From IMG/VR virus record IMGVR_UViG_3300030102_003297, positions 1-32,944 of that record: a DNA stretch of 32,944 bases. One strand, 5' to 3'. Both the position numbers and the translations under genes were made by a program. Each line of letters starts with the position of its first letter. Position 1 is the stretch's first letter. Positions 3,799 through 32,944 of this stretch are shown here, one piece after another. Below the pieces are notes generated by a model. The model saw only the letters and a list, made by a program, of their open reading frames with translations, ran no database searches and was not told the DNA's origin. This DNA is from a virus. Its lineage: Duplodnaviria; Caudoviricetes.

Positions 3799-4367
3799 TA
3801 GTAGATATTAGCAAAGTAAAATACAACCCAAAAAACCCCAGAATAATTAAAGACTATAAATTTAAAAAGCTGGTAAAAAGCCTGAAAGATTTTCCTGAAA
3901 TGCTAGAAAAAAGGCCAATTGTAGTAGATGAGGATATGATTGTGCTTGGTGGTAATATGAGATTAAAGGCGTGCCACGCAGCAGGTTTTTCAACTGTTCA
4001 TATTTTAGTAGCAGAGGGCTGGACTGATGAACAAAAAGATGAATTTATAATAAAAGATAACAGCAGCTTTGGTGAATGGGACTGGGATATTTTAGCAAAC
4101 GAATGGAACCCAAGCCAGATAAATGACTGGGGTTTAGATCTGCCGAAGGTATATTTTGAAGATGAGGAAGAGCCACAGCTTGACAAAGATATATTTGATC
4201 ACGAGTTAGATACATATATTAATGCAAAAATAAAACAGATTACTTTATATTTTAATTCTGAAGAATATGAAAAAGCTGTAGGAGATTTAGAAAAAATCAG
4301 AGAGAAAGAAAATCTGACTGACAACACGCAAGTATTTAAATTTTTGATTAAGAAATATGGACTATAA
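3795..4367 (+). CDS. ParB/Srx N-terminal domain protein (no fused methyltransferase)
   Basis: NPKNPR, LVKSL, PIVVDEDMIVLGGNMRLKA, IIKDN...GEWDWDIL. Confidence 0.88.
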   Translation: MIVDISKVKYNPKNPRIIKDYKFKKLVKSLKDFPEMLEKRPIVVDEDMIVLGGNMRLKACHAAGFSTVHILVAEGWTDEQKDEFIIKDNSSFGEWDWDILANEWNPSQINDWGLDLPKVYFEDEEEPQLDKDIFDHELDTYINAKIKQITLYFNSEEYEKAVGDLEKIREKENLTDNTQVFKFLIKKYGL

Positions 4368-5100
4368 AATTGCCATACCCTCTTATAAAAGATCTGAAAC
4401 AATTAAAAACAAAACTTTAAAATTGTTAAATGATTATGGTATTGATAAAGAACGCATTACAATATTTGTAGCAAACAAACAGGAAGAAACAATTTATAAA
4501 GATAGCCTACAAGATAAATATAAAATTGTAGTAGGCGTGCCAACAATTGGAAAACAAAGAAACTTTATAGAAAAATACTACCAAGAGGGCACAAGATTAA
4601 TGATGTTTGATGATGATATAGAAAAGGTGCAAAGAAAGGTAAAAGCAAAACTTGTTGATGTTGTTGATTTAGAAAAAGAAGTTTTTTATAAAGGCTTTGA
4701 AACTTGCGAAATGATTAATGCAAAAACGTTTGGAATTTATGCAGCATCAAACCCATACTTTATGAAGAACAGAATATATACAAAAATTTGTTATATTATA
4801 GCGAGTATGTTTGGCGTTATTGTTGAACACGATCCTTTTTTAGAAAGGGTTACAAATCACGGAGAAGATTATGAATATAGCATTAGGCAGTATATAAAAA
4901 ACAAAAAGTTAGTTAGGCTAGATTATCTAACAGTAAAATCAAACTATTATAAAGAAGAAGGTGGCCTACAAGAAATAAGAACAAAGCAATATGTATATGA
5001 TTCAATATATCAAATTCAAAGTATGTTTCCAGAATTTTGTCAGATGTATATAAGAAAATCAACAGGCAACGCAGAATTAAGGTTAAAAGATATGAGATGA
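4357..5100 (+). CDS. GT-A fold glycosyltransferase, TET-associated (TAGT/GREB1-like) family
   Basis: IAIPSYKR, KQRNFI, DxD motif MFDDDI, GEDYEYSIR and GGLQ; adjacent to a TET/JBP-like gene. Confidence 0.85.
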   Translation: MDYKIAIPSYKRSETIKNKTLKLLNDYGIDKERITIFVANKQEETIYKDSLQDKYKIVVGVPTIGKQRNFIEKYYQEGTRLMMFDDDIEKVQRKVKAKLVDVVDLEKEVFYKGFETCEMINAKTFGIYAASNPYFMKNRIYTKICYIIASMFGVIVEHDPFLERVTNHGEDYEYSIRQYIKNKKLVRLDYLTVKSNYYKEEGGLQEIRTKQYVYDSIYQIQSMFPEFCQMYIRKSTGNAELRLKDMR

Positions 5101-5978
5101 AAAGAATAGACGTAGAAAGAAAAGAAATAAATAAAAAAGATTATATTAGAAGAACTGCTAGATTAAGTGATGTGTCAAGGCATATTAAAGAAGATACAAT
5201 TGTATATCATAATGGAAAGCCGATATTATTATACAAAGTATTATCAACACCACCAAAAGATGTTAGATGGGCAGTAAAAAATATTAAGTATTCAACAGGC
5301 AAAAGAACACACGGACTAGTAAACACAAGTGCGGTTTTCGGATATAGTCCAAGGCAAGAAAACAAACACGACTATTGCACCTCATCAGCAATGGGCTACA
5401 ACACACCAAAGCAACACTACATAATTAGCAACTTTGCCAAGCAAATACAAAAATATTATAAAGACTACTTTCACGAAACATATAAACAACATAAAGAAAA
5501 AGTAAAAGAAAAAGTAAAAGATCAATGGGTAATAAAAGATACAGTATTCACAAGTGGCATAGTAAATAAAAACAATCAACTTAAATACCATTTTGATAGT
5601 GGTAATTTTAAAAACGTATATAGCAATATGCTTGTATTTAAAAGTGATGTTATGGGTGGGCATTTAGTTATACCAGAAATAGATATATCATTAGAGGTTG
5701 CCGACAACAGCGTTACAATATTTGATGGTCAAGATTTATTGCACGGAGTTAGCCCAATTGATTATAACAACTCAAAGGCATATAGATATAGTATTGTTTA
5801 TTATTCTTTAGAACGTATGTGGCAGTGTATGACAATTGAAGAAGAAGTAGATAGAATCAGAGAAAAGAAAATGATACGAGAACAAAACAGATTGAAGCCA
5901 GAACATCTTGATACTCTGCGACAAAGAAAAAAAGAAGCCAAAGATTATAAAGATAAAATAGAAGATGAACAAAAGTGA
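5097..5978 (+). CDS. TET/JBP-like Fe(II)/2-oxoglutarate 5-methylpyrimidine dioxygenase (likely start 5097, 293 aa)
   Basis: HxD motif KYHFDSGN, GGHLVIPE, distal His LLHGVSPI, 2OG-binding RYSIVYY; ATG at 5097 overlaps the GT stop (ATGA). Confidence 0.85.
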   Translation: MKRIDVERKEINKKDYIRRTARLSDVSRHIKEDTIVYHNGKPILLYKVLSTPPKDVRWAVKNIKYSTGKRTHGLVNTSAVFGYSPRQENKHDYCTSSAMGYNTPKQHYIISNFAKQIQKYYKDYFHETYKQHKEKVKEKVKDQWVIKDTVFTSGIVNKNNQLKYHFDSGNFKNVYSNMLVFKSDVMGGHLVIPEIDISLEVADNSVTIFDGQDLLHGVSPIDYNNSKAYRYSIVYYSLERMWQCMTIEEEVDRIREKKMIREQNRLKPEHLDTLRQRKKEAKDYKDKIEDEQK

Positions 5979-26862: not shown

Positions 26863-27117
26863 ATGAAAAAAATTAGTCAAGAAGAATTAAATTACATTAA
26901 AGAGATTTTATCAAGTATTGCACTCAACGATCAAAAGATAGGTTTTAAAAACAGAAAAATACAAGTTTTAGATGCTGAAATAAAACAATTATATCAAGAT
27001 ACATTTCAGTTAGAAGCTGATCAAAAAAATCATATGAATAAACTTGAAGAAAAATATGGTAAAGTAATAATTAATTTAGAAGATGGAACTATAACAAAAG
27101 ATGAAAAACAAGATTAG
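26863..27117 (+). CDS. Hypothetical coiled-coil protein
   Basis: Heptad pattern, ends LEEKYGKVIINLEDGTI. Confidence 0.7.
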   Translation: MKKISQEELNYIKEILSSIALNDQKIGFKNRKIQVLDAEIKQLYQDTFQLEADQKNHMNKLEEKYGKVIINLEDGTITKDEKQD

Positions 27118-27418
27118 TGAAGATACAAACGTAACATTAGATTTAAAAACTATTGGTATTATTATTGGTGGGGTGGTTGCTATTGCAACAACTTACTTTA
27201 CTTTGCAAAGCAGTGTAGCAGCAAATACTGATGATATAAAAAATTTAAAAACTGATGGTGTTTCAAGTGTTGAATTTCAATACAAGGACGAGCTAGTACG
27301 ATCAACAATTAAACGTATTGAAGAAAAGCAAGAGACTATGGGTGATGATGTCAAAGAAGTTAAACAACAACTTGACAAAATTGATGAACGATTGTATCAA
27401 ATAAGTAAAAACAGATGA
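27101..27418 (+). CDS. Single-pass membrane protein with coiled coil (i-spanin/holin-like architecture)
   Basis: TM segment IGIIIGGVVAIATTYFTL followed by a coiled coil. Confidence 0.65.
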   Translation: MKNKISEDTNVTLDLKTIGIIIGGVVAIATTYFTLQSSVAANTDDIKNLKTDGVSSVEFQYKDELVRSTIKRIEEKQETMGDDVKEVKQQLDKIDERLYQISKNR

Positions 27419-27744
27419 AACTATGTGTAACGGCGATTGCCCTTTTTGTATCGGTTGCGACTTTAGCACAAGCTGAATCTATTTCAATAGTTCAGTACAC
27501 TGCTAATTTTGCAGAAGAAATATCTTTAGATGAATACAAAGATTATAATGTAGAAACCCTACTTATGTCTAATTCTAAAAAAATATTTGATAAAAAGAAA
27601 ATTAAGTATTTACCCACTGTTATATTATATAATGATGGTGAAGAAGAATTAAGAATAGAGGGTGATATAAGTTTAAAACTGCCAGATAATTGGAAGCAAT
27701 TACTAAACAAACATATAGATTTATTATTGGAACAACGCTTCTAA
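27415..27744 (+). CDS. Exported thioredoxin-fold-like protein lacking CxxC
   Basis: Signal peptide ending TLA-Q; IKYLPTVILYNDGEE matches the thioredoxin cis-Pro/beta3-beta4 motif; no Cys in the mature part. Confidence 0.6.
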   Translation: MKLCVTAIALFVSVATLAQAESISIVQYTANFAEEISLDEYKDYNVETLLMSNSKKIFDKKKIKYLPTVILYNDGEEELRIEGDISLKLPDNWKQLLNKHIDLLLEQRF

Positions 27745-28175
27745 GCACGTTTACATTTAGTCAAATACAAGAGGATAAAAAGTTACATTTTGCTGCTGGT
27801 AATGTTATAGGGGCTGCTGGTTATGTTTATTCATATAACAAACATCAAGATAAAAAAAGAGCAATAATTAATAGTGTTTGTCTTGCATTTGCAGCAGGTG
27901 TTGTTAAAGAAATATACGATGGAGAAAATGATGGTTACGTTGAACACGAAGATATATTAGCAACTACATTAGGTGGTATAACAATTTCGGCTTTATTTAA
28001 TTTATTAAACAAAAATAAAAAATCAAATTATAGAAAACTAGATAAAAAATTAGGAGGTTATTATTATGAACACAACTACAAAGAAATTAATTACACTGAT
28101 TATAATGCTTTTTACGAGCTTGACTTTTACACAAGTTATAACACAGGACAAGCTAAAAAAAGTAAGAAAAAATAA
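27690..28175 (+). CDS. YfiM/VanZ-like membrane protein with signal peptide
   Basis: Signal ending TFS-Q; DKKLHFAAG...GVVKEIYD...EDILATTLGG motif set with hydrophobic helices. Confidence 0.65.
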   Translation: MEAITKQTYRFIIGTTLLSTFTFSQIQEDKKLHFAAGNVIGAAGYVYSYNKHQDKKRAIINSVCLAFAAGVVKEIYDGENDGYVEHEDILATTLGGITISALFNLLNKNKKSNYRKLDKKLGGYYYEHNYKEINYTDYNAFYELDFYTSYNTGQAKKSKKK

Positions 28176-29187
28176 CTTATTTAAAAAAGTATTTAAATAC
28201 TCTACATTTTATGGTGCATATTCACAAACCAACTCGATACAAGCACCACAAACATTTATTGTAACACAAGACAACGAGCTAATAGAAACCACAAAGCGTT
28301 ATCCCTCTGATATGATGATGACTTATGGGTGGCGTAAATTAGCACATTTCCAGTACGAAGATCGTGATAAATTTTATGATGGTGATGAAAAAAATGCAAG
28401 TGTTAAATCAAGTATTGGTGCTTACAAAGGTTTAGAATATCTTGTGGAATATTCACGTGGTAGGCAACAAGGCCGTGAGTTTAATAATCAAGAAATATTT
28501 TTACGCTATCTTGCAAACTATTGGTTAATTAAAGGTGAGTATCAGAAAAATGAACTAGTAGATATTGACTACAAAAGTGCTGAATTAAGATTACGTTTAC
28601 CTATTGGAAAAAAGTTTAGCTTTAGTGCTGGTGCAATTTATCGTACATACGAAAAAGCCTATGGACACAACCCAATACAAAACTACTTAGAAGATAATGC
28701 TTGGTGGGAACTAGCCTACCAATATCACACAGATCAATTATATGAAATGATAGACCCTTTTACACAAGAAAGTTTGGGCTACGATTATCTTTGGTACAAC
28801 CAACAAGGGCAAATAATAGCTGCAAGTGATGCTGATTATAGAAACGGAGTATTTCAAAATGTTGTTAATAGATATAATCGTGAACAGCTTTCAATGATTG
28901 GGGGCTTCGCAGATCTTGCCCCAGTTGCTGGTGTAGATTTCTATCATTATAAAAGAAATTTTTGGGTGCATTTATACGGAAGTGTAATGACAAAACACAA
29001 ATTAATGACTGGTGATGAAAGATATTCGTATGGTAATTATGTAGATGGTGAATGGATTGATTACTCGGCTGGTGGTGTGTTCGGTTTCAAATTTGGAAAA
29101 TTCGGAGTTTTTAGCGAACTTACACTACAAAGATACTGGGATAGAAATATAAAGCAAATCAAAGTAGGTATTAATTTTAAATTATAA
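28066..29187 (+). CDS. Putative outer-membrane beta-barrel protein
   Basis: Signal peptide ending TFT-Q; many amphipathic aromatic-rich strands (KFSFSAGAIYRT, PVAGVDFYHY, FWVHLYGSV, GGVFGFKF); C-terminal KVGINFKL resembles a BAM beta-signal. Confidence 0.7.
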   Translation: MNTTTKKLITLIIMLFTSLTFTQVITQDKLKKVRKNNLFKKVFKYSTFYGAYSQTNSIQAPQTFIVTQDNELIETTKRYPSDMMMTYGWRKLAHFQYEDRDKFYDGDEKNASVKSSIGAYKGLEYLVEYSRGRQQGREFNNQEIFLRYLANYWLIKGEYQKNELVDIDYKSAELRLRLPIGKKFSFSAGAIYRTYEKAYGHNPIQNYLEDNAWWELAYQYHTDQLYEMIDPFTQESLGYDYLWYNQQGQIIAASDADYRNGVFQNVVNRYNREQLSMIGGFADLAPVAGVDFYHYKRNFWVHLYGSVMTKHKLMTGDERYSYGNYVDGEWIDYSAGGVFGFKFGKFGVFSELTLQRYWDRNIKQIKVGINFKL

Positions 29188-29189
29188 TT

Positions 29190-29429
29190 ATGTGGAAACT
29201 AACAAAAAAATATTTTAAAGACTTGTGGGCTTTTTGGTGGGGGCTGACAACGATAGATGAAAAGGCAAAAGCTACAGGAAAAGAAATAAAACGTAGAGCA
29301 AAAAATGTAAAAAAAGAACTTCAAGATGTTGGCAAAGCAATGAAAGAAGTTGGTAATCAAATAGGTGATATAGATGATGCAGTAAAAGGTAAAAAAAGAA
29401 AGGGAAGAAAAAATGAAAAAAATAAGTGA
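29190..29429 (+). CDS. Small basic amphipathic protein
   Basis: Trp-rich N-terminus (KYFKDLWAFWWG), then an apolipoprotein-like helix. Confidence 0.7.
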   Translation: MWKLTKKYFKDLWAFWWGLTTIDEKAKATGKEIKRRAKNVKKELQDVGKAMKEVGNQIGDIDDAVKGKKRKGRKNEKNK

Positions 29430-29877
29430 ACATATTTCATATAACGAGGCAGTATATAGTGCAACTGCAAAGCGTAAAGGCATAGACAATAAACCAACAA
29501 AAAAGCAAGTTGATAATATGCAACTGATAGCTGAAAAAATTTTTGAACCATTAAGAGAATGGGTTGGTGGCCCAATAAAAATAAATAGTTTTTTCAGAAA
29601 TAAAGCAACAAATGAAGCCGTTGGTGGCAGTAGTACTTCTATGCATTGCAAAGGTTTAGCAATTGATCTTGATGATATATATGGATATAAAACTAACGCT
29701 GAAATGTTTTATTATATATGCGAAAATTTAGAGTTTGATGTTGCTATATGGGAATTTGGTGATGATAAAAACCCAAGCTGGGTGCACGTAAGCTATAGAC
29801 CAGATGCAAATAGAGGCAAAATATTAAAAGCAGTAAAAGAAAATGGCAGAACTAAATACGAATACTTTAAATTATGA
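29413..29877 (+). CDS. Endolysin, peptidase M15A family
   Basis: INSFFR, NEAVGGSSTSMHCKGLAIDL (SxHxxGxAxD) and WVHVS zinc-ligand motifs. Confidence 0.9.
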   Translation: MKKISEHISYNEAVYSATAKRKGIDNKPTKKQVDNMQLIAEKIFEPLREWVGGPIKINSFFRNKATNEAVGGSSTSMHCKGLAIDLDDIYGYKTNAEMFYYICENLEFDVAIWEFGDDKNPSWVHVSYRPDANRGKILKAVKENGRTKYEYFKL

Positions 29878-30296
29878 GCAAAAAAAAGTTTAGCGAAACT
29901 AAGGTTGGTAAATTTTTATTAAACAAAGGCAGTAATTTATTTAATGTTGTGGGTGATGTACTGCCAGACAATGGTGTTTTAGGCGTTGTAAAGAATTTAA
30001 TTGACAAAGACAATACAATGCCCCAACAAGACAAGGAAACGGCCTTAGAGCTTATAAAACAGGATCAAATAGAAATGCAAGAGATTACTAAAAGATGGGT
30101 GGCTGATGCTTCTGCTGGTTGGCTACAAGCAAACGTTAGACCATTAACACTTATTTTTTTTAGTGTTGCTTATGTTGTCGGTTGGTATTTAGATTATCCA
30201 CTTGAAAGTATTACAGGTTTATTAAGTTTAATTGTTGGTGCTTATTTTGGATCTCGTGGTGTTGAAAAAGTAATGGGTAATAACAGACATAAATAA
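29874..30296 (+). CDS. Holin (GTA 3TM holin-like)
   Basis: RWVAD...WLQANVRPL, TM helices and GAYFGSRGVEK; next to the endolysin. Confidence 0.8.
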   Translation: MSKKKFSETKVGKFLLNKGSNLFNVVGDVLPDNGVLGVVKNLIDKDNTMPQQDKETALELIKQDQIEMQEITKRWVADASAGWLQANVRPLTLIFFSVAYVVGWYLDYPLESITGLLSLIVGAYFGSRGVEKVMGNNRHK

Positions 30297-30430
30297 TGCC
30301 ACGCAAGACAATAGTAAACATATATAAAAGCAAATCTAGAAAGCGCAAAGGCATACATTCAAAAACAAAAAGCAGCAAATTAAAAGCAAGTAAAAATTAT
30401 CTAAAAAGGTATAAATCACAAGGTAGATAA
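30296..30430 (+). CDS. Small highly basic protein (44 aa, ...RKRKGIHSKTKSSKLKASKNYLKRYKSQGR), not in the ORF track
   Basis: TAATG overlap with the holin stop; K/R-rich with no acidic residues. Confidence 0.7.
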   Translation: MPRKTIVNIYKSKSRKRKGIHSKTKSSKLKASKNYLKRYKSQGR

Positions 30431-32562: not shown

Positions 32563-32707
32563 GCCATCAATAAAGCAAAAATTAAGATACATTCAAAATA
32601 GATTACAGTGGTACGATTTATTTACTGATTATATTTATAATTATAACAGAAGTGTATGGAACAATGCTACTGAATTTGCAGATGAAATGATGGAAGATGC
32701 TGATTAA
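32522..32707 (+). CDS. Hypothetical protein
   Basis: ORF tiled within the operon; overlaps the helicase start. Confidence 0.65.
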   Translation: MSKINQNGTTKKNRPSIKQKLRYIQNRLQWYDLFTDYIYNYNRSVWNNATEFADEMMEDAD

Positions 32708-32944
32708 TTATGATGATCAAATTGACAAATTAATAAAAGTTCGAAAGGGTGAAACACAAGAGGGCTTTAAATTAGATATACCACAGATAGATGAGTATTT
32801 TCGATTTAAAAAAGCAAATTTCAATTTAATATTAGGCCACGCCAACGCAGGAAAAACAACTATAACTTTATATTTGATGTTGTTATATACTGTTGCACAT
32901 AAATTTAAATGGTTAGTTTTTTCAAGCGAGAACGATCCTCATAC
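32697..32944 (+). CDS. SF4 helicase, 5' part (continues at the window start)
   Basis: MLINYDDQIDKLIKVRKG...GHANAGKTT, open to the window end. Confidence 0.85.
   Translation, partial: MLINYDDQIDKLIKVRKGETQEGFKLDIPQIDEYFRFKKANFNLILGHANAGKTTITLYLMLLYTVAHKFKWLVFSSENDPH
32725..32944 (+). repeat. Terminal direct repeat, copy 2
   Basis: Matches 1-220 with 5 mismatches. Confidence 0.97.

What the first reader, a model, noticed from the sequence alone, without database searches (positions are those of the whole stretch)
27101..29429. Envelope-spanning module in the lysis operon: TM coiled coil, Cys-less thioredoxin fold, YfiM/VanZ-like protein and a beta-barrel OMP
Seen: overlapping genes directly upstream of the endolysin and holin. 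Three consecutive products have Sec signal peptides followed by Gln (TLA-Q, TFS-Q, TFT-Q), matching the Bacteroidota Q-rule for signal peptidase I substrates. The 373 aa protein has beta-barrel strands, a large central loop and a beta-signal-like end. No lipoprotein o-spanin or integrase is evident. Inference: an undescribed inner membrane-periplasm-outer membrane apparatus, either a spanin substitute for outer-membrane disruption, a superinfection-exclusion or decoy receptor, or a nutrient uptake channel used during infection.
Basis: partly seen in the sequence, partly recalled or inferred. Interest (0 to 1): 0.8.

Follow-up and report, generated by a model that had tools for sequence, protein, structure and literature searches.

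The report
Barrel-anchored phage lysis switch
Many uncultured ocean phages carry three linked genes, for a predicted outer-membrane barrel, an exported redox-dead thioredoxin fold and an inner-membrane coiled coil, that likely chain the two membranes together and likely control when the infected cell bursts, because relatives without the barrel nearly always carry a small holin-like gene instead; no function has been tested.

Summary
The window is a complete 33-kb marine phage. Barrel (predicted 12 strands), exported CxxC-less thioredoxin fold and single-pass coiled coil occur together at 131 of 134 distinct barrel loci; the YfiM-like gene at 26 of 134. The barrel is phage-only in these searches. 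This scan noted the trio before on at least 11 other windows.

Three results not in those notes' short summaries: (1) barrel and a 51-aa holin-like peptide nearly exclude each other (1 of 100 barrel genomes has it; 0 of 28 peptide genomes has a barrel), even when the trio sits far from the lysis genes; (2) a C-terminal Phe/Tyr ends all 246 standard thioredoxins and moves onto a lengthened coiled coil where the thioredoxin is missing, suggesting a docked chain; (3) distant coiled-coil homologues carry a cytoplasmic MshEN-type (c-di-GMP receptor) domain. Neither phage type shows a lipoprotein spanin.

Best reading: a signal-gated trans-envelope lysis switch (0.40); rival: non-lipoprotein spanin (0.30).

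The parts
27101..27418 (+). Core 1: 105-aa single-pass inner-membrane protein (TMcc); conserved short N-terminus, TM about 17-35, periplasmic helical part; predicted N-in/C-out
   Evidence: Hydropathy peak; invariant K16, E58, K62, D63, R67; at 133 of 134 barrel loci; MshEN-type domain fused to the N-terminus in distant homologues
27415..27744 (+). Core 2: exported minimal thioredoxin fold without CxxC; keeps the Pro at the cis-Pro position; ends in Arg-Phe
   Evidence: Model pLDDT 83; Foldseek top hits are thioredoxins, TM about 0.6; invariant Q19, A30, P67; at 131 of 134 barrel loci; aromatic residue at -1/-2 in 246 of 246 standard-type copies
27690..28175 (+). Accessory YfiM-like membrane protein; overlaps both neighbours
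   Evidence: NF008028 E 2e-8, below cut-off; near 26 of 134 barrel loci
28066..29187 (+). Core 3: 373-aa predicted 12-strand outer-membrane beta-barrel, large outer loops, highly conserved periplasmic turn 92-121; phage-only family in these searches
   Evidence: fold; 1110 homologues; conservation; no family or PDB sequence match; no host source
29190..29429 (+). Accessory 79-aa cationic amphipathic protein (net +13); meets the loose disruptin screen
   Evidence: near 15 of 134 barrel loci, 0 of 80 loci of the holin-like peptide; screen from 10.1101/515445 passages
29413..29877 (+). Peptidase M15 endolysin (context; exchanged for other endolysins in relatives)
29874..30296 (+). Holin, phrog_3427 / GTA_holin_3TM-like (context; shared by barrel-type and peptide-type phages)
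   Evidence: 78 of 80 peptide loci; closest cultured match Nonlabens phage P12024S holin, 35%
26863..27117 (+). 84-aa coiled-coil protein upstream of the cassette (context; also in barrel-less relatives)

Best explanation
The three core proteins likely form a chain from the inner membrane to an outer-membrane barrel and likely act as a signal-gated lysis switch, doing the job that a small holin-like peptide appears to do in related phages. Shown: the trio is fixed, sits in the late operon, mostly beside interchangeable endolysins and holins, and nearly excludes the 51-aa peptide. Inferred steps: (1) the coiled-coil protein sits N-in/C-out; (2) the exported thioredoxin fold binds its conserved periplasmic helix; (3) the thioredoxin's C-terminal basic+Phe end docks on the conserved periplasmic turn of the barrel; (4) the barrel's outer loops meet an outside cue (for example an adsorbing sibling phage), and in some lineages a cytoplasmic MshEN-type domain adds a c-di-GMP input; (5) the chain holds back or trips the shared three-helix holin, which releases the endolysin. 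It would work like T4 lysis inhibition (holin T with periplasmic antiholin RI) with an added outer-membrane input.
For: Fixed trio: 131 of 134; reciprocal 73 of 73 and 67 of 68; two gene orders. Lysis link: endolysin or holin within 3 kb at 104 of 134, six more by Pfam, with four endolysin and three holin families exchanged. Exclusion: peptide in 1 of 100 barrel records (1 of 45 at least 90% complete); barrel in 0 of 27 peptide records, plus G013; 0 of 80 peptide loci; control 4 of 4. Not a slot effect: in G080 and G082 the trio lies over 10 kb from the lysis genes and the cassette still lacks the peptide; same in G008, G015, G025. The peptide is holin-like: phrog_920 in 35 of 61 members, best E 4e-4; nearest named Atlas cluster T7-type holin, 0.86, a lead. 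Chain: aromatic end in 246 of 246 standard thioredoxins, 0 of 8 of the subfamily that occurs without a barrel; where the thioredoxin is missing the coiled coil has 119-126 periplasmic residues (median 62) and ends Gly-Arg-Phe in 5 of 5, against 0 of 213 aromatic ends otherwise. Barrel conservation peaks at strand 2, turn 92-121 and strand 3. Regulation: the extra N-terminal domain matches PilF (5e-14), PilB (3e-10), MshE (7e-8); 19 distinct ORFs, all in barrel loci. Topology matches T/RI as described in PMC11413866 (abstract).
Against: No binding or function is shown. No sequence likeness to T or RI was found. The holin tree needs 11 barrel/peptide changes, but the independent-pairs test is not significant (6 starred pairs, median p 0.125), and I chose records by length from anchor searches, so lineage explains part of the exclusion. 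One complete genome has both (G130) and one has neither (G022). The peptide's holin label is weak: Pfam T7 holin in only 2 of 61 at E 0.05, and 29 of 61 copies also meet the disruptin charge screen, so it could be the outer-membrane disruptor. Lysis adjacency falls with divergence (23 of 37 at 70% clusters, 6 of 12 at 50%, before the Pfam additions). Three of the 8 thioredoxins without an aromatic end lie in barrel loci. Only 2 of 19 MshEN-type domains keep one near-perfect motif; the window's own protein has none. Outer loops are less conserved than the periplasmic turn.
Confidence: 0.4

Rival explanations
1. Non-lipoprotein spanin: the chain would tie the two membranes and fuse them once the wall is gone, the barrel serving as outer anchor in place of a lipoprotein; the 51-aa peptide would be a disruptin-type alternative.
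For: N-in/C-out helix-linker-helix build like Rz, and C-terminal docking like Rz/Rz1 (PMC6139136 passages). Thioredoxin-less forms have about 125 periplasmic residues. No lipobox gene in the complete window. Both phage types already share a holin and an endolysin, so the alternating gene could be the third, outer-membrane step. 29 of 61 peptides have net charge +4 or more.
Against: No lipoprotein spanin in five peptide-type genomes either, so no complementary spread with spanins. The alternating gene matches a holin family. A cytoplasmic MshEN-type domain and a 350-aa barrel with large outer loops are not needed for fusion (inference). Coiled coil plus thioredoxin also occur without any barrel, including in complete genomes G002, G031, G039. 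The cultured phage P12024S shows neither module near its endolysin and holin.
Confidence: 0.3
2. Superinfection exclusion or receptor masking: the barrel and partners would bind or hide the phage receptor late in infection so that newcomers cannot inject or progeny do not stick to debris.
For: Large, variable outer loops; position right after the tail-fibre gene in many lineages; trio can sit away from lysis genes.
Against: Does not explain exclusion with a holin-like peptide, nor the fixed inner-membrane partner; no integrase hit in the window; barrels stay homologous across phages with unrelated fibres.
Confidence: 0.12
3. Surface display or export device: the barrel would anchor or pass phage-made secreted proteins.
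For: Large secreted-type genes are inserted between trio genes in several lineages; 12-strand autotransporter and FapF barrels are among the fold matches.
Against: These inserts are absent from most loci, including the window; no passenger domain; fold scores are tied across unrelated barrels.
Confidence: 0.08
4. Nutrient uptake channel used during infection.
For: Top Foldseek match is the 12-strand porin NanC (E 2e-4, TM 0.30); Atlas neighbours include CymA and OmpG.
Against: Late-operon position coupled to lysis genes; no metabolic neighbours seen in the gene maps; no host homologue as a source; does not explain the exclusion.
Confidence: 0.05

Closest known systems
T4 lysis inhibition: class III holin T plus antiholin RI (PMC11413866 abstract; PMC9636201 passages)
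   Same: Single-pass N-in/C-out membrane protein with a periplasmic domain, paired with a small exported protein with a cleavable signal peptide; proposed control of lysis timing.
   Different: No sequence or fold match; the partner is a thioredoxin fold; a dedicated outer-membrane barrel is added; a separate holin is present, so the membrane protein is not shown to be the holin.
Two-component spanins, lambda Rz/Rz1 type (PMC6139136 passages)
   Same: N-in/C-out helical inner-membrane subunit with two helices and a linker; overlapping downstream partner gene; C-terminal docking; lysis-cassette location.
   Different: No outer-membrane lipoprotein; a soluble adaptor and a beta-barrel instead; about 62 periplasmic residues in most copies; cytoplasmic regulatory domain in some.
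Disruptin gp28 of phage phiKT (10.1101/515445 passages)
   Same: The 79-aa accessory protein and about half of the 51-aa peptides meet that paper's loose screen (under 80 aa, net +4 or more).
   Different: The trio is a three-protein spanning system, not a peptide; the screen is noisy by the authors' own words.
MshEN c-di-GMP receptor domain (PMC5013675 passages)
   Same: Tandem motif domain at the N-terminus of distant coiled-coil homologues.
   Different: Motifs are degenerate in 17 of 19; absent from the window's protein; fused to a phage membrane protein, not an ATPase.

Membership tests
Two-component spanin | Inner-membrane N-in/C-out subunit with helical periplasmic domain | tested here: met
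   One TM and helical C-terminal part; N-in inferred from MshEN fusions
Two-component spanin | Outer-membrane lipoprotein partner with lipobox Cys | tested here: not met
   No + strand lipobox ORF in the complete record; the partner's mature part has no Cys
Two-component spanin | Complements an Rz/Rz1 lysis defect | not testable with these tools
   Needs an experiment
Unimolecular spanin | N-terminal lipobox plus C-terminal TM in one protein | tested here: not met
   No lipobox ORF
T4-type holin T / antiholin RI | Single-TM N-in/C-out protein plus exported periplasmic partner | tested here: met
T4-type holin T / antiholin RI | Homology to T or RI | tested here: inconclusive
   No T-family hit among PHROG matches of 43 members or PDB sequences; thioredoxins fill the Foldseek list; absence from a list does not exclude
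T4-type holin T / antiholin RI | Hole formation and delay of lysis on superinfection | not testable with these tools
   Needs an experiment
Redox-active thioredoxin | CxxC active site | tested here: not met
   Only Cys4, in the leader; no conserved Cys in the alignment
Thioredoxin fold | Fold and cis-Pro position | tested here: met
   invariant P67
Outer-membrane beta-barrel | Even number of long strands, leader peptide, C-terminal strand | tested here: met
   12 strands; VIA Z 11.6, rmsd 3.8, 180 aligned to TamA barrel; nearly all listed rows are membrane barrels
A named porin or autotransporter family | Sequence or standout fold match | tested here: inconclusive
   No Pfam, PHROG, NCBIfam or PDB sequence hit; fold scores tied
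YfiM lipoprotein (NF008028) | Score above cut-off and lipobox | tested here: not met
   34 bits against 117; no lipobox
T7-type holin (for the 51-aa peptide of relatives) | Match to PF10746 | tested here: inconclusive
   2 of 61 at E 0.05; phrog_920 holin 35 of 61; Atlas 0.86
MshEN domain (distant homologues) | Tandem 24-residue motif | tested here: inconclusive
   Profile match to PilF/PilB/MshE, no Pfam MshEN hit, near-perfect single motif in 2 of 19; binding untested

The most novel reading that the evidence does not exclude
A widespread phage-built sensor that spans the whole envelope: an outer-membrane barrel reads an outside cue, a redox-dead thioredoxin relays it to an inner-membrane coiled coil, and in some lineages host c-di-GMP is read on the cytoplasmic side, so that lysis time is set by the environment; phages that lose it fall back on a fixed-clock holin peptide.
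Probability: 0.3. Interest if true: 0.92.

Novelty: categorically new. Interest (0 to 1): 0.78.

Why it matters
Lysis timing sets burst size and the release of organic matter from marine Bacteroidota. Regulated lysis delay is characterised in few phages, and the listed studies name no phage-made barrel as its input. The family is common (about 1,500 stored IMG/VR stretches by the tool's estimate) yet absent from the 50,697 GenBank phage records searched. The near-exclusion with a 51-aa peptide gives a direct swap experiment, which also addresses how spanin-less Bacteroidota phages pass the outer membrane.

Tried and rejected
Inter-protein covariation on 125 paired trios: top coiled-coil/thioredoxin pairs did not exceed within-clade permutations; rejected as shared ancestry. 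Distance-matrix correlations among trio genes were modest and mixed (0.10-0.51); uninformative. Promoter and terminator scans were at or below chance. No RNA holder listed. Four-gene module: rejected, YfiM-like gene at 26 of 134. Recent host fragment: rejected; 10 hits among 185,579 genomes, all MAG contigs of 1-65 kb, 8 with trio partners, and 1 of 401 genomes of one MAG's family, the centre itself. Homology between the peptide and the coiled-coil protein: none. No cultured relative for barrel, coiled coil or peptide. The named T4 T/RI and spanin families did not appear in the fold and profile lists; that does not exclude them. Literature searches listed no description of the trio; only titles and abstract starts were seen, subscription papers are missing, and the spanin database supplement of PMC6139136 was not read.

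Full report
Setting. The window is a whole virus record of 32,944 bases, 100% complete by CheckV, with terminase, portal, tape measure and fibre genes on one strand. After the fibre come an 84-aa coiled coil, the five genes of the finding, a peptidase M15 endolysin and a holin, overlapping in a chain. The best run holding the DNA is a marine metagenome. A Bacteroidota host is inferred from Gln after the leader peptides (Q-rule: PMC5837995, search listing only) and from the nearest cultured holin, that of Nonlabens phage P12024S.

Observation. Confirmed as written. The 373-aa protein models as 12 long strands with outer loops at 56-81, 196-280 and 309-331 and a poorly resolved periplasmic turn at 92-121 (sidedness inferred from barrel topology). 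Foldseek ranks the 12-strand porin NanC first; the wide VIA search returns membrane barrels with tied scores, best Z 11.6, rmsd 3.8, 180 aligned. It has no Pfam, PHROG, NCBIfam or PDB sequence match. The 109-aa protein is a minimal thioredoxin fold without CxxC.

What is conserved. The barrel has 1110 homologues and about 1,500 stored IMG/VR stretches by the tool's estimate. Of 204 barrel clusters at 95% identity, 134 had 3 kb on both sides; the other 70 were left out. The coiled coil lies within 4 kb in 133, the thioredoxin in 131, both within 1.2 kb in 117; the YfiM-like gene is near 26 and the 79-aa gene near 15. From the coiled-coil side, 73 of 73 loci with enough DNA have the thioredoxin and 67 of 68 the barrel. 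An endolysin or holin lies within 3 kb in 104 of 134; Pfam adds six (lysozyme, GTA holin twice, DUF5675 twice, a weak SLT; reading DUF5675 as lytic is my inference). Eight more belong to a lineage where reductase genes interrupt the region; 16 have no recognised lysis gene nearby. The share falls to 23 of 37 and 6 of 12 at 70% and 50% clustering, before the Pfam additions. No host source was found: 10 hits among 185,579 genomes, all MAG contigs, and 1 of 401 genomes in a family-wide search, the centre itself.

The swap partner. Searching with the holin gave close relatives without the trio. In matched gene order (L097 against L099-L103; holins up to 89% identical) a 51-aa two-helix gene takes its place. 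It matches phrog_920 holin in 35 of 61 copies; Pfam support is weak. Whole-record searches found the peptide in 1 of 100 barrel records and the barrel in 0 of 27 peptide records, 15 of them at least 90% complete, plus G013; the control found 4 of 4. The exclusion holds where the trio has moved to the tail region (G080, G082) or the barrel lies elsewhere (G008, G015, G025). Limits: records were picked by me for length from anchor searches; G130 has both, G022 neither; on a holin tree of 93 rows the states change 11 times, but the independent-pairs test has only 6 supported pairs, median p 0.125. No lipobox gene was found in ten fetched genomes, five of each type, so the trio does not alternate with lipoprotein spanins.

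Signs of a physical chain. All 246 distinct standard thioredoxins end with Phe or Tyr at the last or second-last position and lie in barrel loci; none of 8 copies of a second subfamily does, and 5 of these 8 have no barrel. Where the thioredoxin is missing, the coiled coil is about twice as long and itself ends Gly-Arg-Phe (5 of 5), whereas 0 of 213 thioredoxin-paired copies end in an aromatic residue. The most conserved part of the barrel is strand 2, the periplasmic turn and strand 3, with conserved basic residues. I infer that the C-terminal Phe docks there.

Signs of regulation. Nineteen distinct distant coiled-coil ORFs carry an N-terminal domain matching the c-di-GMP receptor domains of PilF, PilB and MshE (motif from PMC5013675 passages). 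That supports N-in topology and points to a regulated protein, though most motifs are degenerate and the window's copy has none. The short cytoplasmic N-terminus is itself well conserved.

Mechanism. Both phage types share the three-helix holin and an endolysin (78 of 80 peptide loci have the holin), so the trio and the peptide likely supply a further lysis function. It is either timing control or outer-membrane disruption. I favour timing (0.40): the alternative gene looks like a holin, the membrane protein and exported partner copy the T/RI layout (PMC11413866 abstract; PMC9636201 passages), a barrel reaches outside in a way an anchor need not, and a cytoplasmic sensor domain fits a switch. 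The spanin reading (0.30) keeps real support: Rz-like build and C-terminal docking (PMC6139136 passages), no other spanin, and about half of the peptides meet the disruptin screen (10.1101/515445 passages). Exclusion or masking (0.12), display (0.08) and uptake (0.05) do not explain the swap.

Known systems and novelty. It fails the lipoprotein test for both spanin classes, has no CxxC, and shows no homology to T or RI in these searches; it may work like either. Five paper searches listed no description; subscription literature and supplements were not seen. This scan recorded the trio on at least 11 other windows; those notes gave me the spanin survey paper and the T9SS-cargo label, and their short summaries do not mention the exclusion, the moving C-terminal Phe or the MshEN-type fusion. 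Verdict: a real, widespread, undescribed three-part envelope system tied to lysis, function unproven; interest 0.78.

Noticed in passing
window 4357-5978: TET-associated glycosyltransferase (E 4e-16) next to a Tet/JBP oxygenase (E 3e-11): a likely DNA base-modification pair.
   Followed up: no
window 32697-32944 and 1-887: A primase/helicase is split across the two ends, so the record is likely a circularly permuted complete genome (100% by CheckV).
   Followed up: partly
L395:6092, L428:4218, L429:7766, L487 and others: Coiled-coil homologues with an N-terminal MshEN-type domain; many of their barrels lack Gln after the leader, which suggests hosts outside Bacteroidota.
   Followed up: partly
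L395:4583-4987, L429:4576-4959: Small proteins with a mechanosensitive-channel beta domain lie just upstream of the barrel in large phages.
   Followed up: no
barrel loop 196-280 in distant homologues: Calcium-loop-like Dx[DN]x[DN]G motif (label recalled) in 25 of 120 barrels; absent from the window.
   Followed up: no
L007:1586-1726 and many others: A 47-aa hydrophobic protein without family hit sits between endolysin and holin in both barrel-type and peptide-type cassettes; absent from the window.
   Followed up: partly
L039:8394-9016; L140, L158, L230, L366: A mobile coiled-coil + thioredoxin subfamily without aromatic end occurs with no barrel or as a second copy.
   Followed up: yes
window about 30297-30430: A very basic ORF of about 44 aa follows the holin and recurs in many relatives.
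   Followed up: no
L023, L032, L148, L154: Ribonucleotide reductase genes on the opposite strand separate the trio from the holin in one large-phage lineage.
   Followed up: partly
L274, L283, L303, L422, L510: Large secreted-type genes inserted beside or inside the trio; earlier scan notes call such genes T9SS cargo, not tested here.
   Followed up: no
window 26864 to 29334: One contig of run X1 shows a joint that skips the cassette, with only 21 letters on the short side; probably another organism.
   Followed up: no
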